Made by a program: the position numbers and the translations under genes | Shown: in pieces, positions 1,020 through 22,435 of the stretch | How the letters are laid out: every line of letters starts with the position of its first letter | How positions within the stretch are numbered: the stretch's first letter is position 1 | The notes under the pieces: model-generated | Told to the model about the DNA's origin: nothing | Database searches by the model: none | What the model saw: only the letters and a program-made list of their open reading frames with translations | DNA from: Nanopusillaceae archaeon | GTDB taxonomy: Archaea > Nanobdellota > Nanobdellia > Nanobdellales > Nanobdellaceae | Direction of reading: 5' to 3' | NCBI GenBank assembly: GCA_049974095.1 | Contig: JBMFJD010000006.1 | Coordinates: 1 to 32,000, forward strand | Length of the DNA: 32,000 nucleotides

Positions 1020-1045
1020 ACAAATGTTTATATGTGTTTTTTATA
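1020..1045 (+). promoter_or_regulatory. promoter cassette ACAAATGTTTATATGTGTTTTTTATA (TATA box plus conserved downstream GTGTTTT)
   Basis: The identical 26-mer recurs at 4543-4568 and 5422-5447, each 36-45 nt upstream of an ATG. TTTATAT is an archaeal TATA-like core. Confidence 0.7.
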
Positions 1046-1057
1046 ATAATTATAATA

Positions 1058-1867: not shown

Positions 1868-1952
1868 TTTTTTAAATATTTTTTTGATAAACATGTTTTT
1901 CATAAAAAAGGTTTATAAGATTTTTTTATAATATATGACGTATAGGGTTTTG

Positions 1953-2807: not shown

Positions 2808-2822
2808 TTTTTTATTGTTTTG

Positions 2823-3638: not shown

Positions 3639-3696
3639 TTTTTTGGTTTTGATGATTTTCAATAAACATTTATAAGGTTTTAATATAATAATATAT

Positions 3697-4536: not shown

Positions 4537-4542
4537 TTTTTT

Positions 4543-4568
4543 ACAAATGTTTATATGTGTTTTTTATA
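4543..4568 (+). promoter_or_regulatory. promoter cassette, identical 26-mer to 1020-1045
   Basis: Exact repeat ACAAATGTTTATATGTGTTTTTTATA, lying 36 nt upstream of the ATG at 4579. Confidence 0.7.
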
Positions 4569-4578
4569 TATAGTTTTG

Positions 4579-5447: not shown

Positions 5448-5466
5448 ATATATAATATAGGTTTTG

Positions 5467-6591: not shown

Positions 6592-7916
6592 TGGATGAGG
6601 AATTATTAAAGTTAGTAATTGCTAAAAATTTTCCATTATTTGCACCAATATTAAGTAAGATAAGGATAAAGGAAGATAAGAGTTTACAATATCCTGCAGG
6701 GTTGAATTATAGAGAAAGAACAATATATATTAATCCTGATCAATTTGATGAATGTAATAGTAAAGAAAAGATGTTTATAATAGCACATGAGATAATGCAT
6801 TATCTATTAGTACATGATCCTAAAGCATTGAGGGATAAAAATTTATTGTTAGTATTTAATTTAGTTAGGGATGCACAAATCAATCATATATTATATAAAC
6901 AAATGAACTATATGGCAGAGGGGGTTATAACATTAGATATATTAGAAAGTATGAGTGATAAGGTAAGGGAATACTTTGATGGGGATGTTGAAAAATTCCT
7001 TAATGAGGATGAGTATTTTATTGTTAAGTTAATGTTAGAGGATGAGAAAGTTAAGGGGATGATCAATAAGATGATTGATGTATTAGAAAGCGGGGATGAT
7101 CTTGATGAAATTAGTAAGAAAATTAAGGATATATTAAGAGAGAATGGGGTTAATGTGGATTTAGATGAGATTAGTAGGGATATAGTAAAAGAATATAATG
7201 AAAGTAAGGAATTGGGGGAAATGAGTGATGAGGAAATAAGGAAAATTGTTAATGAGGGTATGGAAATGTTAGAGAAAGGTAGGTTATTAAGTAAAATGTT
7301 TAATCCTGAAAGTAAGGAATTAGATATAAAGTTAAGGAAAAAAAGGATTAAATGGAAAGAGGCATTAAGGCAGGTAATGAGTGAGATAGGGGCATTGGCT
7401 ACGGATTATGATTTAACAAAATTGGATAAGAAAGCATGGGTATTAAAGACATATGTACCTGGTGTTATAAAGGAAAATGAAAGTATTAATGTAATAATTG
7501 GTATAGATGTAAGTGGTAGTATTAGTGATTATGAATATATGGAATTTATTAATGAGGTATATAATTTAATGAGTGATGTAAAGGTAAATGGGAAAATAGT
7601 ATTATGGGATGATAAGGTTGAGAGAGTGGTTAAGGTGGATAATGGATGGAATAATGAAATATTGAGAGAATTAAAGAATAGAGTAGGTTATGGGGGTACA
7701 ATAATAAAGGAATTCTTTAATAAGGCTAATGAGTTAGTAAGGAATAAGAGAAATAGTTATTTGATAATATTGACTGATGGGGAACATGAAAAGGTAGATA
7801 GAGAATGGGTTAAGGATTATAAGAAAGTGGTATTTGTTATAAGTAAGAATGGAAAGGTTGAGAATCTGATGGGTATAAAGGATATGAAAAATGTATATAT
7901 TACTTTTTTAGAATAA
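6588..7916 (+). CDS. VWA-domain protein with N-terminal HExxH putative metallopeptidase domain (DUF2201-like architecture)
   Basis: HEIMH in IIAHEIMHYLLVHD. MIDAS-like GIDVSGS followed by LTDGE in the C-terminal half. Translationally coupled to the upstream MoxR gene. Confidence 0.75.
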   Translation: MMDEELLKLVIAKNFPLFAPILSKIRIKEDKSLQYPAGLNYRERTIYINPDQFDECNSKEKMFIIAHEIMHYLLVHDPKALRDKNLLLVFNLVRDAQINHILYKQMNYMAEGVITLDILESMSDKVREYFDGDVEKFLNEDEYFIVKLMLEDEKVKGMINKMIDVLESGDDLDEISKKIKDILRENGVNVDLDEISRDIVKEYNESKELGEMSDEEIRKIVNEGMEMLEKGRLLSKMFNPESKELDIKLRKKRIKWKEALRQVMSEIGALATDYDLTKLDKKAWVLKTYVPGVIKENESINVIIGIDVSGSISDYEYMEFINEVYNLMSDVKVNGKIVLWDDKVERVVKVDNGWNNEILRELKNRVGYGGTIIKEFFNKANELVRNKRNSYLIILTDGEHEKVDREWVKDYKKVVFVISKNGKVENLMGIKDMKNVYITFLE

Positions 7917-7932
7917 TTTTTTTAAAAAAATT
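7915..7932. terminator. bidirectional oligo-T terminator / perfect palindrome AATTTTTTTAAAAAAATT
   Basis: It sits between convergent stops (7914-7916 plus strand, 7931-7933 minus strand) and gives a T7 run on each strand directly after each stop. Confidence 0.6.
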
Positions 7933-8662
7933 AGAGTAAACCGGAATTGTATAACCTTATTGCTTTCCTTATGCTTACACCATCACTAAATAGTTTTTCA
8001 TATTTTTCATCAGGTAATATTACACCTGCTTTTTGTAGAATTTTTTTATATTTATCCTGGTCCATTTTTATCTCAAATTTTAAATCAAACCTATCTAATA
8101 TATACTTTGGTATTTTTGTTATATCATTTGCTACACCTATGACTTGAACACCTTCATTATATACATCTATTAATGCATCTTGTACTGCTCTAGGCATTTT
8201 ATCAATTTCATCTATTAATATACCAAATCCATATGGTTTTGCTACGGTTTTGTAAAATAGTAATTCATTTTTCTTTGTAGTACTTCCTACTGTAAATATG
8301 TATCTTTGTAATCTTGATATTTCTTCTAATAGGTATGATTTTCCAATACCTGAACCACCTACTATTAATATCCATAGTTTGTTTTTCAATCCTATTAAGA
8401 ATTTGTCCCTATCATTATCATCTAATATTGTTAAGTCTATATCATTTATGTCTGCTTTACTGTTCTCAAAATCTGCAATATATTGTTTTCCATCTTCAGT
8501 TATTCTTACATACATGTGTCTATTTGTTATGCTTATCTCTACTAATCCTTCGCTATACATTTTTTTGAACAATTCTTTTATGTTTCTCTCATATCCGCTT
8601 ACTTCTACATAGTCACCTTCTTTTGCTATCTTCTTCAACAATATGTATTTTAGTACGTCCAT
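7931..8662 (-). CDS. compact AAA+ ATPase with N-terminal winged-helix domain (Orc1/Cdc6-RFC clade-like)
   Basis: N-terminal wHTH-like 70 aa. Walker A GGSGIGKS, Walker B ILIDEIDKM, GVAN sensor-1, ILDRFDLKFEI. Lid ends in SDGVSIRKAIRL, which resembles the GDxRxAI motif of clamp-loader/initiator AAA+ proteins. Confidence 0.65.
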   Translation of the reverse strand: MDVLKYILLKKIAKEGDYVEVSGYERNIKELFKKMYSEGLVEISITNRHMYVRITEDGKQYIADFENSKADINDIDLTILDDNDRDKFLIGLKNKLWILIVGGSGIGKSYLLEEISRLQRYIFTVGSTTKKNELLFYKTVAKPYGFGILIDEIDKMPRAVQDALIDVYNEGVQVIGVANDITKIPKYILDRFDLKFEIKMDQDKYKKILQKAGVILPDEKYEKLFSDGVSIRKAIRLYNSGLL

Positions 8663-10885: not shown

Positions 10886-12871
10886 TCATTCGCTCGATTT
10901 TCTTCTTTTCTTTATTAATATTAATGGGATAAGTACTAATGCTGAGATGGTAAATATTGTAGATGTAATTGTTATATAGTTGAATTCTCTGGTCATTGTT
11001 GAGTGTAGATATATTTGTATTGATTTGTTTATGGTTATATTTTTTGGATCTATTGTATATATGTCATAGTAAAAGAAATGGTCTTCTACCAGTACTGATT
11101 TATTGATATATATTTTCTGGTCTGCGGGTAAATAATCTGAATATGATTTTATATTTGTTATTGTTGTATTTCCTATGGTTATATTTATTGGTATTTGAGA
11201 GTCTATTTTCACATAGTATTCGGGGGTACAATAGTTTAGTAATTGTATTTCTCTTGATCCGTATGTTGTTATGTATATTTGATTTGGACATTCATACCTT
11301 AGATCATTATAGTAGTAGTATTTTTCTAATGATATAGATAATGTTGTACCATTCTTAGCATAAATAGTACCTTTACCAATGTATTTTTGACCATCTACAT
11401 AATATACACCGGCAGGTATTGTAAAGTTAACCTGGTATTCTGGTACACAATAGTTTAGTAACTGGACTGTTCCTGGACTGTATACTGGTACATATACTAA
11501 ATAAGGACATTCATATCTTATAGCATCGTAGTAGTAGTATCTATTAAGGTATACTATTATAGTTGTACCATTTTCGACAGTAAAGGTATTTCTACCCTGG
11601 TACTGTTTACCATCTATATAGTATGTGCCATTTGGTAGGATAAGATCAACATAATAATATAGAGTATAATCTGGATTAATCGTGTAAGATTTATTAATTA
11701 GTAATGGTATAACCGGACCAGGGTAAGATACGTTATTTACATATATGCCTTTTAGGTAATAATATCCACCAGGTACATATATTTTTGGTTGGAAAGTATA
11801 TATTTTGTACAGGACTACTGGGTATTGTTCTATATGATATCTTTTTGTTATTGGGTCATATATGGTTACTGTAAATGGTTTGTATGGTACATTGCCTAGA
11901 TAATCTGGACGGAAATTATCAGTATTTAGGTATACTGATGTTGAGGATACTGGTAATGGATTGATATTTGTTGATGTTTCTGCTGTGGACAGTCCATAGT
12001 TAAATACGTAAGGGACTGGTGTTAATATACCGTTGTTATTGTATAGTAATGTTAGATACCCACTTACTTGAGTTACATACACACAGTCCTCACCACTTAA
12101 ACCACCTATAACTAATTCAAGATTTTGTGGTGATTCTACTGGTGTTAATTGTGGAGCAACCTGGAAATATGCAGATTTTGATGGTACTTGTATTGTTACA
12201 TTATCATACCAGATTATATTATTACCATCTGTTGAATATCCAAATTGTATTACTGGGTAATTACCAGACATGGTTACATTGGTAATTAAGTATATTACAA
12301 AGGGGTAGGCTAATGAGTATTTGTTAGTGTAATATATGTAGACATAAGTATAACTTAGAAGAGGTGGATAACCATACATACTACCTTTACCAGACAATAG
12401 TTTACTTTTAGCTATTGTTTGATACTTATCTATTTCCCAGATATTATTTACTAATCTATAATAGTTGTTATCATTATTTATATCTACTGTATTCTGGACC
12501 CATAGATAATATGTTTTTCCATCATCAGCATTAATTAATAGTACGCCGTTTAGTTGTATGGATGAAGCATCATAATATTTTTCTTTATTACATTTGTTAC
12601 CAGGTCTGACATGTAAGTAATCTAAATATACAAAGCCAATTATTTCGTTTGTTATATATGAATACTGGTATGCTTCACCATTTTTAATTGCAATACCATA
12701 GTCTGAAATTCCTATTGGCATATAGATTAAATTTGGGTTGGACGGGTCTGGTTTAAAATTTTGTACAAATGAGTCATAACAACCATAACCATTAATAACA
12801 CATGTTTGTGCTATTGAAAAAGGATATATGGCAGGTAGAGATACAGATAGGGATAGACCAAAAAGATCCAT
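10886..12871 (-). CDS. thermopsin-family (peptidase A5-like) protein with two C-terminal ~73-aa repeats and a C-terminal membrane anchor
   Basis: Residues ~45-305 align by eye to Sulfolobus thermopsin as I recall it: PIGISDYG, YITNEIIGFV, SIQLNGVL, YYLWVQN, NNIWE, ELVIGG and ILTPVPYVFNYGLSTAETS. Tandem repeats occupy aa ~406-479 and 480-552. The C-terminus is a TM segment followed by KKRRKSSE. Many N-x-S/T sequons. Confidence 0.65.
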   Translation of the reverse strand: MDLFGLSLSVSLPAIYPFSIAQTCVINGYGCYDSFVQNFKPDPSNPNLIYMPIGISDYGIAIKNGEAYQYSYITNEIIGFVYLDYLHVRPGNKCNKEKYYDASSIQLNGVLLINADDGKTYYLWVQNTVDINNDNNYYRLVNNIWEIDKYQTIAKSKLLSGKGSMYGYPPLLSYTYVYIYYTNKYSLAYPFVIYLITNVTMSGNYPVIQFGYSTDGNNIIWYDNVTIQVPSKSAYFQVAPQLTPVESPQNLELVIGGLSGEDCVYVTQVSGYLTLLYNNNGILTPVPYVFNYGLSTAETSTNINPLPVSSTSVYLNTDNFRPDYLGNVPYKPFTVTIYDPITKRYHIEQYPVVLYKIYTFQPKIYVPGGYYYLKGIYVNNVSYPGPVIPLLINKSYTINPDYTLYYYVDLILPNGTYYIDGKQYQGRNTFTVENGTTIIVYLNRYYYYDAIRYECPYLVYVPVYSPGTVQLLNYCVPEYQVNFTIPAGVYYVDGQKYIGKGTIYAKNGTTLSISLEKYYYYNDLRYECPNQIYITTYGSREIQLLNYCTPEYYVKIDSQIPINITIGNTTITNIKSYSDYLPADQKIYINKSVLVEDHFFYYDIYTIDPKNITINKSIQIYLHSTMTREFNYITITSTIFTISALVLIPLILIKKRRKSSE

Positions 12872-13454: not shown

Positions 13455-13476
13455 ACAAATATTTATATGTGTTTTT
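13455..13476 (+). promoter_or_regulatory. promoter-like element ACAAATATTTATATGTGTTTTT pointing into the inverted repeat, with no ORF downstream
   Basis: It matches the block A promoter cassette at 20 of 22 positions. Its first 20 nt are identical to the reverse complement of 31333-31352, upstream of the RHH gene. On the plus strand the only downstream reading is ATG GTA AAA AAC TAG. Confidence 0.45.
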
Positions 13477-13601
13477 GGTGGTATGGTAAAAAACTAGTTT
13501 TTCTAAATATATATATTATGAAAGTTATTACCGATTTTTGCATGTTAAGTCGTATATTAGGAAGATATGTATAAAGGTAGGGAATTTTGGTAAGCCATAG
13601 A

Positions 13602-14401
13602 GGAATGAGTTTATAAATGTTTGCGCCTCAAAATTTGACTAAAATTTATCTTTTATTTCGGACCCCCCTTAACAAAAAAGAAAATCACCTTTCTGTTCCA
13701 ACTTTGAAGTGATAAAAATAGTATATTATATTATGTTTTGTTTAGAATATATACAATATATAATATAGAAAAAATTTATAAATTTTTTATAATATGTGTT
13801 AATATGTGTTACATTTGTTTTTATTTGTTCACATATTTATATTTGTTATTTGCTATATGTGTTATTATGTGTATATGTTACTATTGTTACTAAGTAGTAG
13901 TTACATAAATGTATTTATAAATATATCGATATAAATATATATTATATAGAATAGCATGTTTAAAAAATATATATAGAAAAATATATATTAAAAAAAATAT
14001 ATAGCTAGAAGTATGTCAAAAAATAAATGTCACTACTTATTAATAATAAATAGTAACATAATAATTTAAATAATTTTTTAATAATAATAATAATTTATTA
14101 TTATTATTAATAACAACTACTTAGTAATAATAGTAAATATAAGTAACTACTGTATAGTGGTAGTAGTAAAAATAACACATATTTACACATATAACACATA
14201 AAAACACATATATAGAAAAATTTATAAATATTAAGTACAATATATAGTATAACTATTTCTATGTTAACAAATAATTGATATCTATGTTATCACTTTTTAG
14301 TAAGGGCAGTTTTTGGTAAAAGTTTTTGTGAAAGGGGGGTCAAAAAATAAATGATAAATTTGAGTCCAATTATGAGGCGTAAAAATTTATAAATACATTC
14401 C
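13602..14401. repeat. large imperfect inverted repeat: arms ~13602-13904 and ~14110-14401, spacer ~205 bp
   Basis: Arms align as reverse complements at about 75-85% identity by eye. C6 (13663-13668) mirrors G6 (14334-14339). TTACTATTGTTACTAAGTAGTAGTTAC (13878-13904) mirrors 14110-14136. Confidence 0.85.
13905..14109. other. nearly pure A/T core of the inverted repeat (candidate DNA-unwinding element or terminal-repeat junction)
   Basis: (A)nTATATA(T)AG direct repeats at 13962-14005. ATATCGATAT palindrome at 13923-13932. The (AAT)5..(ATT)4 palindrome at 14080-14111 runs just past the core into the right arm. Confidence 0.5.
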
Positions 14402-14514
14402 AAAATATACAAAAATACTTTCTATAGGAATACCTGTACATTCTATAAAGTCATGATAGACGTTCAAAAATAAGATGCGAATTTCTTTTAAAGTTATCTG
14501 AAATAATATATTTT

Positions 14515-15081
14515 ATGGAAAATACCTATAGGATAGTACAAGGGATACGCAATCTTTATAGTGGAGTACCTCCCTATGCTGTTAGTTTTAGAAAGAGAGG
14601 TAAATTTCTAAAAGATGCGTTTAAAGCATTAGAGAAACTTTTTGAAGATGGTACTTATAAAGATATATCAAAAGCTGCAATTAATTTATTAGAAATATCA
14701 ATAATGTATAATATTACAGAAAGAGCTTCTAGAGATTATTTAAAAGATTTCCATTATTTGTTTGTTGATGAATCATCGAATAAAAACTATGCTTATTTTG
14801 ATGATGAAAAGATTAAAATTGATAATAATAATGAAAGGAAGGTTCAGGCTTTAATTATAGATATTGATAAAATAAAACAAGATATCTATACAACAATAGA
14901 GATGGCTAAAAAAGTGTTAGATCAAGAAGGATCTTTTATATATAGATATACTGATTATTCTGTACCAGAAAAATTTATCGGAATCGTATTAGAGAATGAA
15001 TTTAAACCAACGCATAAAGTATGTAAAACAAGTTATAAAAAAGATGGCCTAATCAAATATATCATTATAATTACGGTATAA
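14515..15081 (+). CDS. hypothetical protein (188 aa), paralog of the next gene
   Basis: ATG ORF and the first gene right of the inverted repeat. Shares ISKAAI..ASRDYLKDF, YFDDEKIKIDNN and GSFIYRYTDYS with the equivalent positions of 15083-15631. Confidence 0.7.
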   Translation: MENTYRIVQGIRNLYSGVPPYAVSFRKRGKFLKDAFKALEKLFEDGTYKDISKAAINLLEISIMYNITERASRDYLKDFHYLFVDESSNKNYAYFDDEKIKIDNNNERKVQALIIDIDKIKQDIYTTIEMAKKVLDQEGSFIYRYTDYSVPEKFIGIVLENEFKPTHKVCKTSYKKDGLIKYIIIITV

Positions 15082-15082
15082 G

Positions 15083-15631
15083 ATGAGTGAATTTGAGATA
15101 GATTTAGGTAGTAAATTGTATAGAATAAATGGTATTATGTTTACTTTTTATCCTCGTAGATTAAATAAAAAAGAAGAACTTGCATTATCGTTATCTGAGA
15201 TACTATATGAGATTGCTGAAAAAGGTTTTTCATATATACTAATAGGATCAAAAGGTATAATAAGCAAATCTCAAATAATGTCAGTATACGATGTAGACTC
15301 TAGTACAGCAAAAGAGTACCTGGATTTTATAAATAATGAAATGAAAAAGCTTGGCGATGATATATCATATATCGACAATGATGTATTATACATAAATTTA
15401 GATAAATTTGTTGAGAGGATTATAGTAATATTGAAAAGATTAAATAAAAAAATAAGAAAGAAGGGGTTTGTTCTTATAACTTATACAGATAAGGACATAA
15501 TAAAAAATATATTGGTTAAATTCTTGAAAGTTAGGTATATGACCAATGACTATAAGATCTACGAAGACTATTTACCTGTTGGACGTGGAAAATTTTACAT
15601 AATGGTACGTAGAAATTATAAAATATATTAA
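15083..15631 (+). CDS. hypothetical protein (182 aa), paralog of the previous gene
   Basis: Starts 2 nt after the previous stop. Carries ISKSQI..TAKEYLDFI, YIDNDVLYINLD and GFVLITYTDKD. Confidence 0.7.
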   Translation: MSEFEIDLGSKLYRINGIMFTFYPRRLNKKEELALSLSEILYEIAEKGFSYILIGSKGIISKSQIMSVYDVDSSTAKEYLDFINNEMKKLGDDISYIDNDVLYINLDKFVERIIVILKRLNKKIRKKGFVLITYTDKDIIKNILVKFLKVRYMTNDYKIYEDYLPVGRGKFYIMVRRNYKIY

Positions 15632-15680: not shown

Positions 15681-17813
15681 ATGGCAGCGGAAAAAGGAAA
15701 AAAAGATAAATTTGTTTTTAGCGGATCCATTATATCACTACAGCAACTCGAGGCCTATATACCAGATAAATTGAAAGAAATGTATATAAATTTTTTGAAG
15801 CAACAAGCCCAACAAATTACACTTGTTGACCAGTCAGCAAGATACTATTTTGAGATAATTAAAAAGCAAGCTATCGAAAATTTCTTTAAATTAGAAGATT
15901 TTGAATATACTTTTATAAATTTTGAAGATTTATATAAGTTTTTACATTCTTTAAAGAAAGGATCAGAATTTAGTAAAGCAGGAAGTGTAATTAAATATTT
16001 ACTACAACATTATGTGAATGAAGATCTACAGATCACATGGCACCTTCCAATATTCGTAAAAAATATTCCTGATAATTATACAAAAACTGTAAAAGAATTT
16101 TTTAAATCAAATGATGACGATATTGTTATCTTGAAAGGCATTATCAATTCTATAACATATATAGAAGGTATTCCAAGATATTTTCTAATTCAACACTCAT
16201 TGTGTGGAGGTAGGTTCTTAATTGAGAATGATATACCAACTAATAAAGATTTGAGGAATATACTAAAAGTTAAAGTAAATTCATGTCCATTGTGTGGCTC
16301 TCCTGAAGGCCAATTTATTGTTGAGCATATTGTTACAACAAATGCATATAAGTTAACAATAACCGATATTCCTAAAGATGAAGGAAAAGAAATACAATCT
16401 ATTGAGGCATATCTATTTGGTAGTGCAATAGATATGTATAGTGTACAACATACAAGAGTTAATTTGGTTGGTATTGCCAGGAGGGTATTTGATGGTAAAG
16501 AAGCAAGAGCATATTTAGAAGTTATTGGTATTGAACCTACAGAAAAAACAGTAGAAGATATAGAATTAAAAGACGAAGATATAAGAAAGATTGAAAATAT
16601 TGTTAAGGAATCCGGATATGATATAATTGATATGGTAGCGGAATCTATGTTACCAAATATAAAAGGAGAGCATTACAAATATATTAAAAGAGCTGTGTTA
16701 TTACAGGCTATATCTGTTAGTCAACAAAAAGAAATTGATTTATTAGCAGATAGATTACATATAAATATATTGTTATTAGGAGATCCAGGTACAGGTAAAT
16801 CTACATTATTAAGAACAATTGCAAAATTAATACCTAGATCAAGATATACTGTAGCTACTTCCTTAACAAAGGCAGGTTTACTGGGTACAGTTACAAAATC
16901 TGAAGAGGGTAAATGGGTATTAGAAATTGGTGCATTACCATCCGCATCTGGTGGAATATTATGTATTGATGAAGCAAATAAGTTATCTTTCGATGATATA
17001 AAATCGTTAAATGAGGCAATGGAACATGGAACAGCAACAATCGATAAGGCAGGTGTACATGTAACATTAAGGGCAAATGCAGCAGTATTAGCAGCGGCAA
17101 ATCCAAAATATGGAAGGTGGGATCCAAATAGGGAATTAATAAGCCAGATAGATATAGAACCAACGATGTTATCAAGGTTTGATTTAATATTCGTATTGAG
17201 GGATATACCAAACAAAGAACAAGATATATTAGAAGCTATGGAGATATTAGGAAGAAATAAAGTTAAAAAGATGTTATTCGATAAAGATTTTATATTAAAA
17301 TACATAGCATATGCTAGAACAATAAACCCAGAATTAACTAGCGAAACGGAAGCATATATTGCAAAATTATATGCTGATCTAAGGGATAAAACCAAAGAAG
17401 AATTTCCAGTAACTAGAAGGCAATTACAAACAATAAGAAGGTTGGCAATTGCTATTGCAAAAGCAAGATTAAGCAATGTTGTTACAAAGGAAGATGTTGA
17501 TTATGCATGGGAAATAATGTCAAATAGTATATATAGCATTATTGGTAAAAATGCTACTGTTCTGGATTTTGGTGTTGTTGAAACTGGAGTTAGGAGTAGC
17601 ACAAAAACCAGAACAATGTTAGTAAAAGAGGTTATTCAACAATTAAATAAAATGTATGGTAAAGGTGTTACCTTTAATGATATATATAATTATCTAAAAG
17701 AAAAGTATAATCTAGATATATCTCAATATGAGCTTAGAGAAATTATTAATGTATTGAAACATACTGGAGATATATATGAACCAGATGAGGGTTTATACCT
17801 TGCAATATTTTAG
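15681..17813 (+). CDS. mcm: MCM replicative helicase, full length (710 aa)
   Basis: N-terminal Zn-motif HSLCGG...CPLCGS. Walker A GDPGTGKS (DNA ~16779-16802), Walker B ILCIDEANKL, sensor-1 AAANP, arginine finger SRFDLIFVL, lid RRQLQTIRRLAIAIAKA, C-terminal winged helix. Confidence 0.9.
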   Translation: MAAEKGKKDKFVFSGSIISLQQLEAYIPDKLKEMYINFLKQQAQQITLVDQSARYYFEIIKKQAIENFFKLEDFEYTFINFEDLYKFLHSLKKGSEFSKAGSVIKYLLQHYVNEDLQITWHLPIFVKNIPDNYTKTVKEFFKSNDDDIVILKGIINSITYIEGIPRYFLIQHSLCGGRFLIENDIPTNKDLRNILKVKVNSCPLCGSPEGQFIVEHIVTTNAYKLTITDIPKDEGKEIQSIEAYLFGSAIDMYSVQHTRVNLVGIARRVFDGKEARAYLEVIGIEPTEKTVEDIELKDEDIRKIENIVKESGYDIIDMVAESMLPNIKGEHYKYIKRAVLLQAISVSQQKEIDLLADRLHINILLLGDPGTGKSTLLRTIAKLIPRSRYTVATSLTKAGLLGTVTKSEEGKWVLEIGALPSASGGILCIDEANKLSFDDIKSLNEAMEHGTATIDKAGVHVTLRANAAVLAAANPKYGRWDPNRELISQIDIEPTMLSRFDLIFVLRDIPNKEQDILEAMEILGRNKVKKMLFDKDFILKYIAYARTINPELTSETEAYIAKLYADLRDKTKEEFPVTRRQLQTIRRLAIAIAKARLSNVVTKEDVDYAWEIMSNSIYSIIGKNATVLDFGVVETGVRSSTKTRTMLVKEVIQQLNKMYGKGVTFNDIYNYLKEKYNLDISQYELREIINVLKHTGDIYEPDEGLYLAIF

Positions 17814-17866
17814 TTCAATTTTTTTATACCATAAATTTTTAAATATGTATCTTAATATTTACTAAT

Positions 17867-18892
17867 ATGAAATTGAAGTATCTGGCACTTGCTACATTTA
17901 TTATATTTACATTTAATATATTTGCTCAACCACCATTCTGGCCAATAGCATCAATAAAAACAGTTAGTGGAACATCTACACAATTACCACTTTATACAAC
18001 TCAACTAGTATACCAGCTAGATATACCACAAAATACTACATTACAGTTTGTTAGAATAAAGATACCAAGTTCAGTAATACAACAGCAATATCAATACTGT
18101 AAAACATACGATTCGTATATAACAAATAATATACGCGACATAAAACAATGTGTTCATGCATACCCTGCAATAGTTTTTCTTTATAATCCGAATACCAGAT
18201 CTACATCAGCACATGATGTAACATATGCTATTGTACCAGTATCATACGATAGCACTACTGGTTTGCCAGATACATTTGATATATTCTTAAATAATCGTAT
18301 TGGTGCACAAGCACCTGGTACATACTATTTATATGTATATTATCCATCGCCATATTATCTTACATTTGATACAATATTTGATCCATATACAATGCCACAA
18401 TGTGTAGATCCTAGTTATGCTACATCTAAAGACTTTAATGGTGGATGGTGTTCGGATACTGGAGGATTTGGTAGCTTTTATAATGCTGAAGCCTTTCCTG
18501 GATATGTTTATCCTTATGCACAATCGCTTTATTATCATGGGGGTAGTTATGGTTGTGTTGGCGTGGGTGGTGTCAATTTAACAAGATATTTTAATGTAAA
18601 ATTTGATCCTCAATATCCTGTATTAATTGGATTTATGTCAACAGGATTTACTCCTGCTTTTGGTGGTTATATTACAGTAGGAAATCCGTCTACAGGCCAA
18701 ATTCAAACAATATATGTCCCTGCAGGAAACGTATTATATGACTTAAGAACGTTAGAGTTAGGTCAAGGATTGAATCCATATCAATGGAATTTAATAATAA
18801 ATGTAAAACATGGCGCTAAATCACAAGGTGTTTGTTATGATGTTGACTTTTATCCAACAGGTATATATCTACAATATGTACCTGCAACATAG
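17867..18892 (+). CDS. secreted protein (341 aa), Y/T/P/Q-rich
   Basis: N-terminal signal-like MKLKYLALATFIIFTFNIFAQPP. Contains sequons NTT and NLT. Inserted between MCM paralogs. Confidence 0.7.
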   Translation: MKLKYLALATFIIFTFNIFAQPPFWPIASIKTVSGTSTQLPLYTTQLVYQLDIPQNTTLQFVRIKIPSSVIQQQYQYCKTYDSYITNNIRDIKQCVHAYPAIVFLYNPNTRSTSAHDVTYAIVPVSYDSTTGLPDTFDIFLNNRIGAQAPGTYYLYVYYPSPYYLTFDTIFDPYTMPQCVDPSYATSKDFNGGWCSDTGGFGSFYNAEAFPGYVYPYAQSLYYHGGSYGCVGVGGVNLTRYFNVKFDPQYPVLIGFMSTGFTPAFGGYITVGNPSTGQIQTIYVPAGNVLYDLRTLELGQGLNPYQWNLIINVKHGAKSQGVCYDVDFYPTGIYLQYVPAT

Positions 18893-18932
18893 AGTATAAC
18901 CAATATAAATATTTGTTCATAAAATATGTATT

Positions 18933-19790
18933 ATGGATTTCCAAGATCTAGTGAATGGTCTATTCCCATCACTAAAAGGTCATATTTACAAATATATTAG
19001 ACAAGCTGTTGCATATCAGTTAATCTCTATAGGAAAAACACCTTTCTTTAGAGATTCTATACATATATTACTTTTAGGAGAACCTGGTACTGGTAAATCT
19101 CATATGTTAAAATATGTTAGCATGATACCTGGTAACAAATATGTAAATGGTGAGAATCTTACTCTAGCTGGTTTGGTTGGATATATTAGCATGTACACCA
19201 TGCAACAGGGTGTTGTATCAACAGTAAATGGTGTATTATGTATAGATGAAATAACAAAATCAAGTAAAACTGTTAGGGAGAGGATGAATGAACTATTAGA
19301 AGAATTATCTGTTACTATTACAAAAGCTGGTAAAACGATAAAATATGATGTAAATCTTGCTGTACTTGCTGCTACAAATCCAAGGCATGGGGTATTTAAA
19401 GGTAAGGATATTATTGAACAGATAGAGTTACCTCCAACAGTTATTGACAGGTTTGATTTGATATTTGTATTAAAAACACAAAATATAGATAAAATAACAA
19501 ACGAGACCTATGTATTTGATAATAATGAATTGGTAAAATATCTTAATGAAGTAAGAATGATAAATCCATCTTCTAGTACTGTTGATTTGAGTAAATTAAA
19601 TATAGGCTTTCCAACATCTGGTGTTTATTTATCTGACAGAAGATTGATGACTGTAATAAGATTAGCAAAAGCAATAGCAAAGTCCTATAAAGATAATGTA
19701 ATTAGGGACGAATATATACAAGAGGCCGAAAAATTCTTTATCAAAATAGTAAATAGATTATTTGGGTATGATATACAAGATTTTGACTAA
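18933..19790 (+). CDS. MCM AAA+ core-only protein (285 aa; lacks the N-terminal OB/Zn domain and the C-terminal wH)
   Basis: Begins at the linker motif LFPSLKGHIYKYIRQAVAYQL (compare MLPNIKGEHYKYIKRAVLLQA in the 710-aa MCM). Walker A GEPGTGKS, Walker B LCIDEITK, LAATNP, DRFDLIFVL, lid LMTVIRLAKAIAKS. Confidence 0.8.
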   Translation: MDFQDLVNGLFPSLKGHIYKYIRQAVAYQLISIGKTPFFRDSIHILLLGEPGTGKSHMLKYVSMIPGNKYVNGENLTLAGLVGYISMYTMQQGVVSTVNGVLCIDEITKSSKTVRERMNELLEELSVTITKAGKTIKYDVNLAVLAATNPRHGVFKGKDIIEQIELPPTVIDRFDLIFVLKTQNIDKITNETYVFDNNELVKYLNEVRMINPSSSTVDLSKLNIGFPTSGVYLSDRRLMTVIRLAKAIAKSYKDNVIRDEYIQEAEKFFIKIVNRLFGYDIQDFD

Positions 19791-21570
19791 TAAAGATCCA
19801 TACAATTTTGTATATAACAATAACCCATATGATGTAGTCATAGGTTTATATTACAATAATTCTTTAATCATAGATCTAGACCAGTACAACAACATAATAT
19901 CATCTGTTACTAACGATTATTTTAATTTACCAAAAACATTAGTACCATTTTCAACAATATTAAATGCATTACTTAATTTGCAAAATTCTCTAGATATACT
20001 TGATACTGGTGCTATTATACAGTTGTTATCTGGTAATGTAAAGGTATCGTCAAATAAACCATTGATATTCTTTATAGTAAGGGATAGAAATAACCCTCTA
20101 TACAATATATTGAAGTCAAAATATAATCTGTATGAAGTATCTCTCAAGACTGCCCGCATAAAAGATCATTCTATATATCTTAGGAGGATAGTGTGTTCAT
20201 CTGGTCACTATATAATAACATGGAAGAAATATCCTCCAATTGTTTGTCCAATATGTACTATGAAAGGACAAATATCTAAGATTGTCGGATTCACAGATTT
20301 CATATATTCTGATAAGATGATTGTATTACATGACGAATATGGAAAGATGAACATAATTACAGATACAGATCTATATGATTTTATGAAAAAACTAGATACA
20401 GATTACAAGTTAATAATAATGGATATTTCTCCCTATAAACATGAATTAAAAGAAACAAGAATAAATAGGTTATTCTATGCTGTCGGACTATTAATTGAAG
20501 ATAAGAGAACCTATAATTATGATGAGATAATAACATTCTTTAACCTAAATATTGATGATAAGATAAGATATATGTTAAATGGTAGTAGGGTTGATGATCT
20601 GGTCATATCTTTACCATTGATGTTACAACAAATCGATAAATTTACAGTATTATATATTGATATTAACCAGAAATATATCCCACTAATATTTGAGTCTTAT
20701 AGTAAATACAATAATGCATCTATAGAAAATCTAACAGAAGTAGAAAATCCTGTATTGATGAATGTACAAGATTTACCTGCAGGTATAAGGTATAAAATAA
20801 ACAACATATTATTAAACCATGAGATGAATCTGGTCATGTTATTTAAATATTCTTATGGATTTAGGGTTGTAGATTTTACATCATTTGATTCATTTTATAA
20901 CTCATTGTCAAGATCATTTTTAACTTTCTTTGATAAAATAGATTTTATTGTTCCATATATTGTTGATTTTGAATTTGAAACAACTGGTAAAAATTTGAAT
21001 AATATATTTAGTTTCATTAGACATACTATTAGATCTATAAAAATATATGATAGAAATTTTGATAATATGTTTTATTCAGAAGTTGAAAGATTGGGTAGAG
21101 TATATAGTCAATACAGTGAAATGATTGCATATAAAAAACAAACTATATATAAGTTATCAAAGATATTTGCCATATTGAATAAAAAGAATAGGATAGATCT
21201 TGATGATATAAGATATGCTATTGGTTATTTTAGTGTGATACACCTATTACCATTTACAATAACAGATATGAAGGCAAAAGATGTTTTAGACCTATACAAA
21301 GATTATATAAAGTTCATATATAATAGATATTTGAATGTACAGGAACAAAAAAGAGTTATTGCTACTAAAAAGGATGTAGAGGAATTAGTATATGAAGTAT
21401 TGAGAACTGGTCCTAAAACAATAATAGAAATTAGAAGAACAATAGATAATATGCGTAACAAATTCGTAATAAAAAGTGGTATTAATCTATACATAATGGT
21501 TGAGAGAGTTCTTAATGAGCTAACATCTCAGGGTAGGATTAAATATAACAATGGTATGTATTCCATATGA
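19768..21570 (+). CDS. MCM-like protein with degenerate ATPase motifs (about 600 aa)
   Basis: OB/Zn-like segment RRIVCSSGH..VCPICT..FIYSDKMIVLHDE fits the MCM N-domain pattern. Positions equivalent to Walker A/B read FTVLYIDINQKY and RVVDFTSFDSF, with no GK[ST] and no DE. Lid-like YKLSKIFAILNKKNRIDLDDIRYAI. C-terminal wH ends in GRIKYNNGMYSI. ATG at 19768; the TTG at 19762 is in the ORF track. Confidence 0.5.
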   Translation: MIYKILTNKDPYNFVYNNNPYDVVIGLYYNNSLIIDLDQYNNIISSVTNDYFNLPKTLVPFSTILNALLNLQNSLDILDTGAIIQLLSGNVKVSSNKPLIFFIVRDRNNPLYNILKSKYNLYEVSLKTARIKDHSIYLRRIVCSSGHYIITWKKYPPIVCPICTMKGQISKIVGFTDFIYSDKMIVLHDEYGKMNIITDTDLYDFMKKLDTDYKLIIMDISPYKHELKETRINRLFYAVGLLIEDKRTYNYDEIITFFNLNIDDKIRYMLNGSRVDDLVISLPLMLQQIDKFTVLYIDINQKYIPLIFESYSKYNNASIENLTEVENPVLMNVQDLPAGIRYKINNILLNHEMNLVMLFKYSYGFRVVDFTSFDSFYNSLSRSFLTFFDKIDFIVPYIVDFEFETTGKNLNNIFSFIRHTIRSIKIYDRNFDNMFYSEVERLGRVYSQYSEMIAYKKQTIYKLSKIFAILNKKNRIDLDDIRYAIGYFSVIHLLPFTITDMKAKDVLDLYKDYIKFIYNRYLNVQEQKRVIATKKDVEELVYEVLRTGPKTIIEIRRTIDNMRNKFVIKSGINLYIMVERVLNELTSQGRIKYNNGMYSI

Positions 21571-21826
21571 TATATACTTTGATGAAGGAGTAGAATTGGG
21601 TAAATTATTTAATATGCTGAATGATGACAATATTAAAAAGATTAAGGAATTTTTAAGCAAATATATAAATAGCAGTAATTATCTGGAGATGATAAGCGAT
21701 GTTGATATCCAAAATAACCAGGATATCATATATATTATGAAATATCTTGGTATTATCACTGAAATCTCTGGTAAGTATTATGTTATAATACCTGTAGCAA
21801 AAACACTTATAAATATTTGTCAATAA
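21551..21826 (+). CDS. small hypothetical protein, possible winged-helix (91 aa)
   Basis: ATG overlaps the end of the upstream gene by 20 nt. The C-terminal IIYIMKYLGIITEISGKYYVI looks like a recognition helix plus wing. An alternative start exists at 21614. Confidence 0.55.
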   Translation: MVCIPYDIYFDEGVELGKLFNMLNDDNIKKIKEFLSKYINSSNYLEMISDVDIQNNQDIIYIMKYLGIITEISGKYYVIIPVAKTLINICQ

Positions 21827-21829
21827 TAT

Positions 21830-22435
21830 ATGAGTATGGAATACAAACTTGAGGTACTAACTCCAATAATAGGTGGTTTATCTAATGATTATTTTGATTT
21901 TAGGATTTTTGCTAAAATTGATTTCTCTGATTTTAAAATAATACCAAAGATAAAGTTAACTAGTGAGGATTTGGCCGGATACGAGAAAGAACTAGAAGGA
22001 AAAGATAAAGATGCAGTGCTTAAAAAATTATATGAGAAGAAAAAAGAAACAATAGAAAAAGAATTTATTAAAAATGGGTATCTAAAATTAGCATACATAT
22101 TTCCCAGAAAACATTATGAAATATCATCCATAAAAACAAAAGAAGATTATATAAATTGGATAGATTATCATGTAGAATTCTCAAGAGGACTGGTTATCGC
22201 ATTACAAAAAGATCATAAGATAAAGGTTAAAATACAGGAGATAAAACCAGTAAAAATAAATATTGGTGTAAGTGTGTTTTACTATGATAACATAAAATCT
22301 GTTATAGCATACGAATCTATATTACCAGGTTCAATTCTATCAGTTAGATTTGATTCCAAAGTAGATACAGATATTACTGTGAATATTGGCGGATTAAAAA
22401 GATTTGGTTATGGTAGGGTGCTAATAAAAACATGA
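21830..22435 (+). CDS. RAMP-like protein (Cas7/Csm3/Cmr4/Cmr6-type motifs), orphan
   Basis: N-terminal YKLEVLTPIIGG fits the RAMP h-x-h-x-TP-h-h-G-G strand-loop. C-terminal NIGGLKRFGYGRVLIK fits the glycine-rich loop GGxxxxG[YF]G followed by a hydrophobic strand. 201 aa. No other cas genes are nearby. Confidence 0.4.
   Translation: MSMEYKLEVLTPIIGGLSNDYFDFRIFAKIDFSDFKIIPKIKLTSEDLAGYEKELEGKDKDAVLKKLYEKKKETIEKEFIKNGYLKLAYIFPRKHYEISSIKTKEDYINWIDYHVEFSRGLVIALQKDHKIKVKIQEIKPVKINIGVSVFYYDNIKSVIAYESILPGSILSVRFDSKVDTDITVNIGGLKRFGYGRVLIKT

What the first reader, a model, noticed from the sequence alone, without database searches (positions are those of the whole stretch)
15681..21570. Three MCM-derived genes in 6 kb: one intact, one AAA+ core only, one full-length with eroded ATPase motifs
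Gene 1 (710 aa) has every MCM hallmark.

Gene 2 (285 aa) starts precisely at the N-domain/AAA+ linker motif. It retains Walker A/B, sensor-1, the arginine finger and the lid, but has no OB/Zn domain and no winged helix.

Gene 3 overlaps gene 2 by ~23 nt. It has an MCM-like OB/Zn N-domain and a C-terminal winged helix, but the Walker A/B-equivalent positions have lost GK[ST] and DE.

Genes 2 and 3 therefore look complementary: an active motor without a DNA-binding collar, plus a collar with a dead motor. That could be a two-subunit or hetero-oligomeric helicase.

The paralogs are diverged (roughly 35-40% identity in the AAA+ core by eye), so this is not a recent duplication. A secreted-protein gene is wedged between genes 1 and 2.

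Extra MCM copies carried by mobile elements, and co-assembling MCM paralogs, are known in Methanococcales and Thermococcales. I do not recall a domain-split active/inactive pair.
Basis: partly seen in the sequence, partly recalled or inferred. Interest (0 to 1): 0.75.

Follow-up and report, generated by a model that had tools for sequence, protein, structure and literature searches.

The report
Conserved triad of MCM-derived genes
An uncultivated low-GC archaeal replicon, binned as Nanopusillaceae, carries next to a likely replication origin a normal MCM helicase gene plus a conserved, overlapping gene pair: an MCM motor domain on its own, and a full-length MCM-shaped protein whose ATPase site is gone, so the pair may be a naturally split or heteromeric helicase.

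Summary

- **Gene 1** (15681-17813) is a full-length MCM.
- **Gene 2** (18933-19790) is an MCM AAA+ core plus lid only. All ATP-site motifs are intact, but the helix-2-insert hairpin is shortened.
- **Gene 3** (19768-21570) has no Pfam, NCBIfam or PDB sequence hit. Its AlphaFold model matches only MCM subunits over its full length (Foldseek E 3e-10). It keeps a zinc ribbon, a lid and a winged helix, and has no Walker A, Walker B or arginine finger.

The triad recurs in seven fully read loci from five diverged lineages. The gene 2/gene 3 overlap is always present, in two different relative frames. This rules out a frameshift error and gene decay. dN/dS is 0.10-0.26.

Genes 2 and 3, a 91-aa ORF and a 201-aa ORF form one operon. 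A 1-kb palindromic AT-rich spacer upstream looks like an origin.

That genes 2 and 3 act as partners is inferred, not shown. Gene 2 keeps both cis and trans ATP-site residues, which argues against a strictly alternating 2/3 ring.

Whether the replicon is a virus, a plasmid or a chromosome is unresolved. I lean towards a mobile element.

I rate this a new variant of a known kind, of moderate-to-high interest.

The parts
13459..14514 (.). Candidate replication origin: a 1.05-kb non-coding AT-rich spacer at the point of divergent transcription. It is a nested imperfect palindrome with inverted TATGTGTTA repeats flanking an AT-rich centre.
   Evidence: Inverted arms: 13602-13679/14324-14401 (78 nt, 78%), 13746-13829/14174-14257 (84 nt, 74%), 13878-13903/14111-14136 (92%). 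All 5 exact TATGTGTTA in the window lie here, 3 on + and 2 on -, against 1.15 expected. The same architecture is in L012 7707-8799. Function is inferred, not tested.
14515..15081 (+). 188-aa ORF, first gene after the spacer; no family hit
   Evidence: An ortholog of 193 aa is in L012. Weakly similar to the next ORF (E 0.006).
15083..15631 (+). 182-aa ORF directly upstream of gene 1; no family hit
   Evidence: An ortholog of 183 aa is in L012.
15681..17813 (+). Gene 1: full-length MCM. It has an N-domain with an H-x2-C...C-x2-C zinc motif, an AAA+ core with Walker A GDPGTGKS, Walker B CIDE, sensor 1, arginine finger SRFD and sensor 2, then a lid and a winged helix.
   Evidence: Pfam MCM 1.8e-64, lid 7.6e-22, WH 1.6e-7. 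NCBIfam NF040949 E 2.4e-104 over aa 76-706. Invariant motif columns in A3. dN/dS 0.26.
17867..18892 (+). 341-aa ORF with a signal-peptide-like N-terminus. It is a lineage-specific insertion between genes 1 and 2.
   Evidence: No family hit. L012 has three such ORFs here (305, 340 and 318 aa). The other lineages have none here, and gene 1 is divergently oriented in them.
18933..19790 (+). Gene 2: short MCM, consisting of the AAA+ alpha/beta core plus lid only. The ATP site is intact and the helix-2 insert is truncated.
   Evidence: Pfam MCM 1.3e-38. 36% identity to gene 1. Eight family members of 278-286 aa at 53-87% identity. Motifs in A5/A8. Model against PDB: all top hits are MCM, TMq 0.69-0.78. 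The hairpin is shorter than in solved MCMs. dN/dS 0.17.
19768..21570 (+). Gene 3: a 600-aa protein with the MCM fold and a dead ATPase. It has a helical subdomain, an OB fold with a C-x3-H...C-x2-C zinc ribbon, a minimal AAA+ core, a lid and a winged helix. At the motif positions, Walker A reads SLPLM, Walker B reads NVQ and the arginine finger reads DKID.
   Evidence: No HMM hit. AF2 pLDDT 71. Foldseek top 50 are all MCM. hhalign mapping of motifs. Invariant C143, H147, C160, C163. dN/dS 0.10.
21551..21826 (+). 91-aa ORF overlapping the end of gene 3 by 20 nt. It is conserved in all lineages and looks like a winged helix by eye.
   Evidence: Orthologs in 7 loci, alignment A7. Overlap of 17-23 nt everywhere. 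dN/dS 0.09. No family hit.
21830..22435 (+). 201-aa ORF, the last gene of the operon. It is conserved in all lineages and its function is unknown.
   Evidence: Alignment A6, 37-64% identity, 35 invariant columns. No Pfam, PDB, PHROG or PADLOC hit. dN/dS 0.17.
7931..8662 (-). 243-aa protein with an N-terminal wHTH-like region and a minimal AAA+ core that has MCM-like signatures (IDEIDK, ILDRFD). It may be a fourth MCM-related ATPase of the same replicon.
   Evidence: Pfam MCM 4.3e-7 over aa 92-137 and AAA 3.3e-6. hhalign against the short-MCM family: probability 96%, E 2e-9, 128 columns. 93% identical in L012, dN/dS 0.08.

Best explanation
The region is the replication module of an uncultivated, very AT-rich archaeal replicon binned with Nanopusillaceae. 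Its order is: a candidate origin, two small ORFs, a canonical MCM (gene 1), then an operon of four translationally coupled genes.

The operon encodes:
- gene 2, an MCM ATPase module without an N-terminal collar or winged helix;
- gene 3, a full-length MCM-fold protein that keeps the zinc/OB collar, the lid and the winged helix but has lost every ATP-site residue and both DNA-translocation hairpins;
- a 91-aa protein;
- a 201-aa protein.

Shown:
- the domain content of the three proteins;
- their common MCM origin (by sequence for genes 1 and 2, by predicted fold for gene 3);
- the age of the arrangement and its conservation;
- purifying selection on all three;
- the reality of the gene 2/gene 3 boundary.

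Inferred:
- Genes 2 and 3 are made in fixed proportion and act together as an accessory MCM-derived assembly. Gene 3 is the non-catalytic DNA- or partner-binding scaffold. Gene 2 is the ATP-driven component.
- Gene 2 conserves its trans-acting arginine finger and sensor 2 as well as its cis-acting Walker A, Walker B and sensor 1. It therefore most likely forms gene 2-gene 2 (or gene 2-gene 1) interfaces. This points to a homomeric ATPase ring or arc docked on gene 3, not a strictly alternating ring.
- Its shortened helix-2 insert and variable pre-sensor-1 lysine suggest an ATP-dependent switch, loader or remodeller working with gene 1. A second autonomous helicase is less likely.
For: - Identity of the genes: genes 1 and 2; gene 3 fold; all top 50 PDB hits are MCM.
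- Conservation: the triad of full MCM, short MCM and gene 3 homologue, followed by ORFs of about 91 and about 205 aa, is found in the window, L012, L001, L002, L004, L006/L007 and L009.
- Coupling: the gene 2/gene 3 overlap is 23, 14 or 7 nt, in the +1 or +2 frame. The gene 3/91-aa overlap is 17-23 nt.
- Selection: dN/dS 0.26, 0.17 and 0.10 for genes 1, 2 and 3.
- Gene 2 is the best-conserved member: mean 63% identity, against 43% for the gene 1 AAA+ core.
- All five ATP-site motifs are invariant in gene 2.
- Gene 3 lacks them in all 8 members.
- NJ tree: G2 monophyletic at 100%, G1+G2 clade at 76.5%, with matching sub-clades in the two families.
- Candidate origin next to the module.
Against: - There is no direct evidence of physical interaction; no multimer model could be run.
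- The MCM ancestry of gene 3 rests on a medium-confidence model (pLDDT 71, pTM 0.55, TM to targets only 0.3-0.36) built from a 7-sequence alignment. Sequence-profile evidence is marginal (E 0.0025; with a broad MCM profile only a 32-column lid segment aligns).
- The gene 2 model is poor (pLDDT 66; only one of five models above 40).
- The NJ tree is a simple distance tree with long branches.
- The origin assignment is by architecture only.
- No primase, polymerase, GINS or Orc1/Cdc6 was recognised in the window, so the 'replication module' label rests on the MCMs.
Confidence: 0.55

Rival explanations
1. Gene 3 is a non-catalytic regulator, chaperone or loader of the canonical MCM (gene 1), working like eukaryotic MCM-BP or a licensing factor. 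Gene 2 is a separate ATPase whose adjacency to gene 3 reflects co-regulation only.
For: Gene 3 keeps the full MCM architecture, including the interface-bearing N-tier and the winged helix, but has no catalytic residues. That is what an MCM mimic that inserts into or caps an MCM ring would look like. Gene 1 is always within 0.1-3 kb of it.
Against: Gene 3 is always overlapped with gene 2, never with gene 1. Gene 1 changes strand and distance between lineages while the gene 2/gene 3 junction is fixed. There was no Pfam hit of any kind, MCM_bind included, at E<=1.
Confidence: 0.2
2. Genes 1, 2 and 3 co-assemble into one heteromeric ring, analogous to Mcm2-7. Gene 3 fills one or more inactive 'gate' positions and gene 2 fills collar-less positions.
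For: All three derive from one MCM lineage and co-diverge. Gene 2's cis and trans ATP-site residues would be satisfied next to gene 1. Co-assembling archaeal MCM paralogues are reported in the literature (from memory: Methanococcus maripaludis, Walters and Chong 2010).
Against: Gene 1 is not in the operon and evolves at a different rate. A subunit with no N-domain would leave a gap in the N-tier. This was not tested.
Confidence: 0.12
3. The short MCM and its partner are not replication proteins at all. They would be a defence or conflict module, for example BrxL-like MCM-family ATPases, or an anti-host device of a virus.
For: Gene 2 gives weak BrxL hits: Pfam BrxL_ATPase 5e-6, NCBIfam BrxL 5e-5, PADLOC BrxL 1.5e-4. 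The neighbourhood holds a MoxR-like AAA+/VWA pair and many orphan secreted proteins.
Against: The MCM score is far higher (132.8 against 26 bits). No other component of a defence system was found. The genes are consistently linked to a canonical MCM and a candidate origin.
Confidence: 0.06
4. Gene 3 is not MCM-derived: the AlphaFold model is a low-depth artefact and the resemblance is convergent or spurious.
For: There are no HMM hits. hhalign probability is only 11-12%. TM-scores are 0.22-0.36.
Against: The model was built without templates and without any MCM in its alignment, yet 50 of 50 top PDB hits are MCM chains aligned end to end. The zinc ribbon, the lid helix and the C-terminal winged helix fall in MCM order. 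The gene sits between two MCM genes' worth of context in every lineage.
Confidence: 0.07

Closest known systems
Multiple or mobile-element-borne MCM paralogues of archaea (Methanococcales, Thermococcales; Krupovic et al. 2010, cited in PMC4104785)
   Same: Extra MCM copies arise by duplication or MGE capture, evolve fast and are clustered. Viral and plasmid MCMs are the nearest annotated relatives of gene 2, at 24-32% identity.
   Different: Those paralogues are, as far as I know (memory), full-length and catalytically competent, or plainly decaying. Here one copy is reduced to the motor and another keeps the whole fold with no ATP site. The two are locked in one operon across five lineages.
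Split MCM of Thermococcus prieurii virus 1 (JQ010983: 'N-terminal part' of 200 aa plus 'C-terminal part' of 554 aa)
   Same: An archaeal virus encodes MCM as separate polypeptides, with N-domain and motor on adjacent genes.
   Different: TPV1 is a simple split of one MCM. In the present pair the collar-bearing partner still carries its own (dead) AAA+ core, lid and winged helix, so the pair derives from two MCM copies rather than one.
Eukaryotic MCM-binding protein (MCM-BP)
   Same: From memory (Sakwe et al. 2007): a highly diverged MCM-like protein without Walker motifs that associates with MCM subunits. Gene 3 is likewise an MCM-fold protein without ATP-site residues.
   Different: There is no sequence relationship: no Pfam hit, MCM_bind included, at E<=1. 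The lineage is different, and gene 3 is paired with an AAA+-only MCM. The resemblance is functional analogy only.
Isolated AAA+ domain of Sulfolobus solfataricus MCM (engineered N-terminal deletion)
   Same: From memory (Barry et al. 2007; Pucci et al. 2007): the AAA+ tier alone retains ATPase and some helicase activity, and the N-tier adds processivity and substrate choice. Gene 2 is a natural version of such a construct.
   Different: Gene 2 also lacks 6-7 residues of the helix-2 insert. In one clade it lacks the pre-sensor-1 lysine. Both are reported to be needed for unwinding in archaeal MCMs (memory: Jenkinson and Chong 2006; McGeoch et al. 2005).
Inactivated paralogues as structural subunits of archaeal and eukaryotic replication complexes (inactive RecJ/Cdc45, inactive PolB domains; PMC3307487, PMC4104785)
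   Same: The evolutionary theme is the same: a duplicated replication enzyme loses catalysis and is retained under selection as a structural partner.
   Different: I did not find this described for MCM in archaea or their elements in the searchable literature.

Membership tests
MCM (Pfam PF00493 / NCBIfam NF040949) - gene 1 | Significant match to the MCM P-loop domain and to the full-length model | tested here: met
   PF00493 1.8e-64. NF040949 E 2.4e-104 covering model 35-679/682, although 350 bits is below NCBI's 940-bit naming cut-off.
MCM - gene 1 | Walker A, Walker B, sensor 1, arginine finger (SRFD), sensor 2, zinc motif, lid, C-terminal winged helix | tested here: met
   G367-K373, D430/E431, N474, R499, R580, H172/C175/C202/C205 are invariant in A3. 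MCM_lid 7.6e-22, MCM_WH_arc 1.6e-7.
MCM - gene 1 | Pfam MCM_N / MCM_OB N-domain models | tested here: inconclusive
   Not among the 25 of 33 hits shown, and absent from the precomputed list for P0017. The relatives in L004 and L009 do hit MCM_OB.
MCM - gene 2 | MCM AAA+ core with all ATP-site motifs | tested here: met
   PF00493 1.3e-38. Invariant G49-K55, D105/E106, N149, R173, R236/R237. Foldseek TMq 0.69-0.78 to MCM chains.
MCM - gene 2 | N-terminal OB/zinc domain and C-terminal winged helix | tested here: not met
   The protein starts at the equivalent of gene 1 residue 314 and ends in the post-lid linker. All 8 members are 278-286 aa.
MCM - gene 2 | Full-length helix-2 insert and pre-sensor-1 hairpin lysine (DNA-translocation elements) | tested here: not met
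   There is a 6-7 residue deletion at the hairpin in all members relative to gene 1 and to solved MCMs. The lysine is replaced by L, A or I in P0011-P0013.
MCM - gene 3 | Significant sequence-model match | tested here: not met
   No Pfam or NCBIfam hit at the thresholds used (E<=1 and E<=0.01). Family profile against PDB: none. Against 1.84e9 representatives: only its own 3 clusters. hhalign E 0.0025, probability 12%.
MCM - gene 3 | MCM fold and domain order (N-domain with zinc/OB, AAA+ core, lid, winged helix) | tested here: met
   The AF2 model gives top 50 PDB hits that are all MCM, about 600 aligned columns, probability 1.00. This is a predicted structure, not an experimental one.
MCM - gene 3 | ATPase motifs | tested here: not met
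   SLP replaces the P-loop, [ND][VI]Q replaces Walker B, and [KY][IV]D replaces the arginine finger, in all members.
MCM-BP (Pfam MCM_bind) | Match to the MCM_bind model | tested here: not met
   No Pfam family at E<=1 for gene 3.
Orc1/Cdc6 initiators | AAA+ with initiator-specific motif plus winged helix, detectable by Pfam or NCBIfam | tested here: not met
   No such hit for gene 3, for the 243-aa AAA+ protein or for the small ORFs.
BREX BrxL-type MCM-like ATPase | BrxL ATPase plus Lon-like domain within a BREX gene set | tested here: not met
   Only weak BrxL ATPase hits for gene 2. There is no Lon domain and no other BREX component.

The most novel reading that the evidence does not exclude
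Genes 2 and 3 encode a naturally 'tier-split' MCM machine. In it, a catalytic AAA+ ring (gene 2) and a non-catalytic MCM-fold scaffold with the zinc/OB collar and winged helix (gene 3) are separate polypeptides that assemble on the adjacent origin. They would either load or activate the canonical MCM (gene 1), or act as a second helicase. This would be the first prokaryotic or viral counterpart of the eukaryotic division of labour between active and inactive MCM-family subunits (Mcm2-7 asymmetry, MCM-BP). It would sit in a previously undescribed virus or plasmid of Nanoarchaeota.
Probability: 0.3. Interest if true: 0.78.

Novelty: new variant of a known kind. Interest (0 to 1): 0.62.

Why it matters
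How a homohexameric archaeal MCM became a heterohexamer with unequal, partly dispensable ATP sites and dedicated non-catalytic partners is an open question in replication evolution. This locus is a compact, conserved natural experiment. It holds one intact MCM, one copy reduced to the ATPase, and one copy that kept the whole fold but lost catalysis. All three are under purifying selection, and two of them are translationally coupled.

The three proteins are small and could be expressed. ATPase, helicase, loading and co-assembly assays would show directly which MCM functions can be separated onto different chains.

Gene 3 also defines a protein family that is invisible to current HMM libraries. 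The module marks a group of uncharacterised replicons from hot-spring-type metagenomes that are binned with Nanopusillaceae.

Tried and rejected
- **Frameshift or assembly artefact at 19760-19790: rejected.** The overlap is present in 7 independently assembled loci and in two different relative frames.
- **Programmed frameshift fusion of genes 2 and 3: rejected** for the same reason.
- **Gene 2 as a decaying fragment: rejected.** It has 8 conserved full-length homologues, it is the most conserved of the three genes, and dN/dS is 0.17.
- **Sequence-based proof that gene 3 is MCM: failed.** I tried Pfam, NCBIfam, PHROGs, PADLOC, a PDB profile search, the 1.84e9-representative hmmsearch, and hhalign with a narrow and a broad MCM profile.
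- **Searches for more loci or longer contigs gave nothing useful.**
  - GTDB species representatives: no relatives of gene 3, and only distant bacterial AAA+ hits for gene 2.
  - IMG/VR: no relatives.
  - JGI/ENA metagenome contigs: only four short contigs.
  - GenBank phages: no match for gene 3.
- **Exact-protein look-ups** of three window proteins to extend the contig returned nothing.
- **Virus versus chromosome could not be settled.**
  - No tRNA or Rfam hit.
  - No PHROG hit of note.
  - No integrase or capsid was recognised.
  - The NAV1 nanoarchaeal virus paper is not held.
- **The 201-aa ORF** looked RAMP/Cas6-like by eye (N-terminal LEVxTP..G, C-terminal G-rich GYG), but nothing supports this.
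- **The AF2 model of gene 2** is too poor for hairpin-level conclusions. The hairpin statement therefore rests on alignments.

Full report
**What is there**

The window is very AT-rich (GC 20-32%). By exact protein identity it comes from a 59.9-kb contig of a MAG labelled Nanopusillaceae archaeon (locus tags ACP5GJ_).

**Gene 1 (15681-17813, 710 aa)** is a full-length MCM.
- Pfam MCM 1.8e-64, MCM_lid 7.6e-22, archaeal MCM winged helix 1.6e-7.
- The NCBIfam full-length MCM model aligns from residue 76 to 706 (E 2.4e-104).
- The zinc ligands, Walker A, Walker B, sensor 1, SRFD arginine finger and sensor 2 are invariant among its orthologues.
- The Pfam N-domain models are silent, so the N-domain is divergent.

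**Gene 2 (18933-19790, 285 aa)** matches only the AAA+ part of MCM.
- Pfam 1.3e-38. NCBIfam model positions 286-475.
- It is 36% identical to gene 1 residues 314-609 (E 7e-45).
- It begins at the N-C linker and ends just after the lid.

**Gene 3 (ATG 19768-21570, 600 aa)** overlaps gene 2 by 23 nt.

**Is gene 3 MCM-derived?**

By sequence the answer is 'not detectably':
- no Pfam or NCBIfam hit at the thresholds used (E<=1 and E<=0.01);
- no PDB sequence hit with a family profile;
- only its own three clusters among 1.84 billion representatives;
- BLASTP to genes 1 and 2 not significant;
- hhalign to the local MCMs at E 0.0025, probability 12%;
- with a broader MCM profile, only a 32-column lid segment aligns.

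The weak hhalign alignment is nevertheless co-linear over 344 columns and pairs the right elements:
- zinc ribbon with zinc ribbon;
- 'LVISLPLMLQQ' with 'LLLGDPGTGKS';
- 'MNVQD' with 'CIDEA';
- 'DKIDFIV' with 'SRFDLIF';
- the 'TIYKLSKIFAILNKKNRIDLDDIRYA' helix with the sensor-2/lid helix.

I then built a template-free AlphaFold model from a 7-sequence family alignment that contains no MCM. It reached pLDDT 71 and pTM 0.55. Foldseek against the PDB returned 221 hits at E<=0.001. The top 50 are all archaeal or eukaryotic MCM subunits, aligned over about 600 columns at 9-13% identity, with E 3e-10 to 7e-8.

The order of secondary-structure elements is that of MCM:
- a helical subdomain;
- a beta-rich OB region with the invariant C143-x3-H147...C160-x2-C163;
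- a five-stranded alpha/beta core;
- a helical lid;
- a three-helix winged helix with a beta-hairpin wing.

The core is stripped down. There is no room for a helix-2 insert or a pre-sensor-1 hairpin.

I conclude, at about 0.9 confidence, that gene 3 is an extremely diverged MCM with a dead ATPase.

**Is the arrangement real and maintained?**

Gene 3 has homologues at 86, 84, 37, 32, 31 and 30% identity. Gene 2 has eight homologues of 278-286 aa at 53-87% identity.

Fetching their contigs gave seven fully read loci in five lineages: the window, L012, L001, L002, L004, L006/L007 and L009. Every one has a full MCM (683-714 aa), a short MCM, a gene 3 homologue (593-623 aa), an ORF of about 91-100 aa and an ORF of about 199-213 aa. 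Where the contig continues, a long syntenic block of orphan genes follows.

The gene 2/gene 3 overlap is 23, 14 or 7 nt. Gene 3 is in the +1 frame in four loci and the +2 frame in three. This excludes a sequencing frameshift and a conserved recoding fusion.

Gene 3 and the 91-aa ORF also overlap, by 17-23 nt. The 201-aa ORF follows after 3-22 nt. Together they form a four-gene operon.

Between the window and L012, dN/dS is 0.26 for gene 1, 0.17 for gene 2 and 0.10 for gene 3.

Gene 2 is the most conserved of the three. Its mean AAA+ identity is 63%, against 43% for gene 1 orthologues.

A bootstrapped NJ tree of AAA+ cores gives the gene 2 family 100% support and a gene 1 + gene 2 clade 76.5% support. 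The same three sub-clades appear in both families. The duplication therefore predates the divergence of these lineages and probably happened within this replicon lineage. This is a simple distance tree with long branches, so I treat it as indicative only.

Gene 1 is co-directional with the operon only in the window lineage, and divergently transcribed elsewhere. The secreted-type ORF between genes 1 and 2 is a lineage-specific insertion: one copy here, three in L012, none elsewhere.

**What the motifs say about mechanism**

- Gene 2 keeps the cis elements (Walker A GxPGTGK[ST], Walker B CxDE, sensor 1 N) and the trans elements (DRFD arginine finger, sensor-2 RR) invariant.
- Gene 3 offers neither a P-loop nor an arginine finger in any member.
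- MCM ATP sites are formed between neighbouring subunits (established knowledge). A strictly alternating 2/3 ring would therefore have no complete site. Conservation of both faces in gene 2 implies gene 2-gene 2 or gene 2-gene 1 contacts.
- Gene 2 lacks 6-7 residues at the helix-2-insert hairpin in all members, relative to gene 1 and to solved MCMs.
- The pre-sensor-1 hairpin lysine is replaced by L, A or I in one of its three clades.
- In archaeal MCMs both elements are reported to be needed for unwinding but not for ATP hydrolysis (from memory: McGeoch 2005; Jenkinson and Chong 2006).

The 'active motor' is therefore better described as an intact ATPase with relaxed DNA-translocation elements.

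My preferred reading is that gene 2 forms a homomeric ATPase assembly docked to a gene 3 scaffold. This assembly would serve the canonical MCM or the origin as a loader, switch or remodeller, or would act as a second low-processivity helicase. The strictly invariant N-terminal peptide of gene 2 (MDFxDLxxxLFPxLKG) and its conserved C-terminal LxGY tail are candidate docking elements. That last point is speculation.

**Surroundings**

- **Candidate origin.** About 1.2 kb upstream of gene 1, at the switch from minus-strand to plus-strand genes, lies a 1.05-kb non-coding AT-rich spacer (13459-14514). It is a nested imperfect palindrome. All five exact TATGTGTTA copies in the window lie in it, three forward in the left arm and two reverse in the right arm, flanking an AT-rich centre. 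L012 has the same architecture. This is the layout expected of a replication origin. It is inferred, not tested.
- **Fourth MCM-like ATPase.** A 243-aa wHTH + AAA+ protein (7931-8662, minus strand) aligns to the short-MCM family at hhalign probability 96% over Walker A to arginine finger, with both hairpin inserts absent. It is 93% identical in L012.
- **Other recognisable genes.** These are a MoxR-like AAA+/VWA-metallopeptidase pair, a thermopsin-family protease and five tandem K/E-rich paralogues.
- **Absences.** No tRNA, Rfam family, ribosomal gene, polymerase, primase, integrase, capsid or defence-system hit was found among about 30 ORFs scanned.

**Virus, plasmid or chromosome?**

This is unresolved. 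Four observations favour a mobile element:
- more than 30 kb has no housekeeping gene, in a lineage with genomes of about 0.6 Mb;
- synteny is conserved at only 27-37% protein identity;
- no relatives were found in GTDB species representatives, although the pattern-based scans would miss distant ones;
- gene 1's nearest relatives outside its own lineage are generic MCMs at 31-38% identity, and none of the top 120 hits is named Nanoarchaeum or Nanopusillus.

In addition, the same MAG holds three versions of gene 3 on three contigs of 59.9, 35.0 and 17.1 kb, at 100, 86 and about 37% identity.

Three observations argue against, or are neutral:
- no match in IMG/VR or GenBank phages;
- no recognisable virion gene;
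- the contig is long.

I put a virus or plasmid at about 0.65.

**Comparison with what is known**

Extra, fast-evolving and MGE-borne MCMs are well known in archaea (Krupovic et al. 2010, cited in PMC4104785). Viral and plasmid MCMs are gene 2's nearest annotated relatives, at 24-32% identity.

Thermococcus prieurii virus 1 is annotated with an MCM split into N- and C-terminal parts. That is one MCM cut in two.

Retention of inactivated paralogues as structural subunits is an established theme for RecJ/Cdc45 and PolB (PMC3307487, PMC4104785). In eukaryotes it is also known for MCM-BP (from memory).

I found no description of a conserved operon pairing an AAA+-only MCM with a full-length catalytically dead MCM-fold protein (literature searches). 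The library is incomplete, so this is absence of evidence only.

**Verdict**

Novelty: a new variant of a known kind. Interest: 0.62.

Noticed in passing
window 13459-14514 (and L012 7707-8799): A 1-kb AT-rich non-coding spacer at the divergent-transcription point. It forms a nested imperfect palindrome with inverted TATGTGTTA repeats (5 of 5 window copies lie here; 1.15 expected). It is a candidate replication origin, and the architecture is conserved in L012.
   Followed up: partly
window 7931-8662 (-): A 243-aa protein with a wHTH-like N-terminus and a minimal AAA+ core with MCM-like IDEIDK and ILDRFD motifs. hhalign probability is 96% to the short-MCM family. It is 93% identical in L012, with dN/dS 0.08. 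It may be a fourth MCM-related ATPase or an initiator.
   Followed up: partly
window 1022, 1907, 4545, 5424, 13457, 21795(-), 23335, 31327(-): The 24-nt motif AAATRTTTATAWGTGTTTTTTATA occurs 8 times against 0.03 expected, mostly just upstream of ORF starts. It is probably a shared promoter element with two TATA-like boxes. It is not found upstream of gene 1 or gene 2.
   Followed up: partly
window 1034-5415: Five tandem paralogous ORFs of 272-290 aa, K/E/N-rich and coiled-coil-like. GC is about 20% and GC skew is extreme (+0.7 to +0.8, almost no C on the coding strand). No meaningful family hit.
   Followed up: no
window 5464-7916: A MoxR-like AAA+ ATPase (375 aa, weak hit) overlapping a 442-aa DUF2201 metallopeptidase-like/VWA protein. 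This is a typical MoxR-VWA pair and is conserved in L012.
   Followed up: no
window 10886-12871 (-): A 661-aa protein with a thermopsin-family acid protease domain (Pfam 9.4e-51). It is one of very few recognisable genes in the window, and an orthologue is present in L012.
   Followed up: no
window 21830-22435 and orthologues in 6 loci (A6): The 201-aa last gene of the operon has a conserved N-terminal 'LEVxTPxxxG' and a C-terminal glycine-rich 'IGRxRxxGYG', which recall RAMP/Cas6 motifs by eye. There is no Pfam, PDB, PHROG or PADLOC support.
   Followed up: partly
window 17867-18892; L012 12202-15289; L006 4044-5099: A family of Y/P/T-rich proteins of about 305-351 aa with signal-peptide-like N-termini. 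It varies in copy number and position between lineages (one copy between genes 1 and 2 here, three in L012, one upstream in L006). It looks like a mobile or rapidly diversifying surface-protein cassette.
   Followed up: no
MAG with locus-tag prefix ACP5GJ (contigs of 59.9, 35.0 and 17.1 kb): The same MAG carries three versions of the gene 3 family (ACP5GJ_02515, _03500 and _04100) at 100, 86 and about 37% identity. This suggests either several related elements or strains co-binned, or multiple copies of a mobile replicon.
   Followed up: partly
L001 1025-1399, L002 834-1223, L006 7508-7888 (all -): In the lineages where the full MCM is divergently oriented, it is followed by a 124-129 aa double zinc-ribbon protein. 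This protein was not seen next to gene 1 in the window lineage.
   Followed up: no
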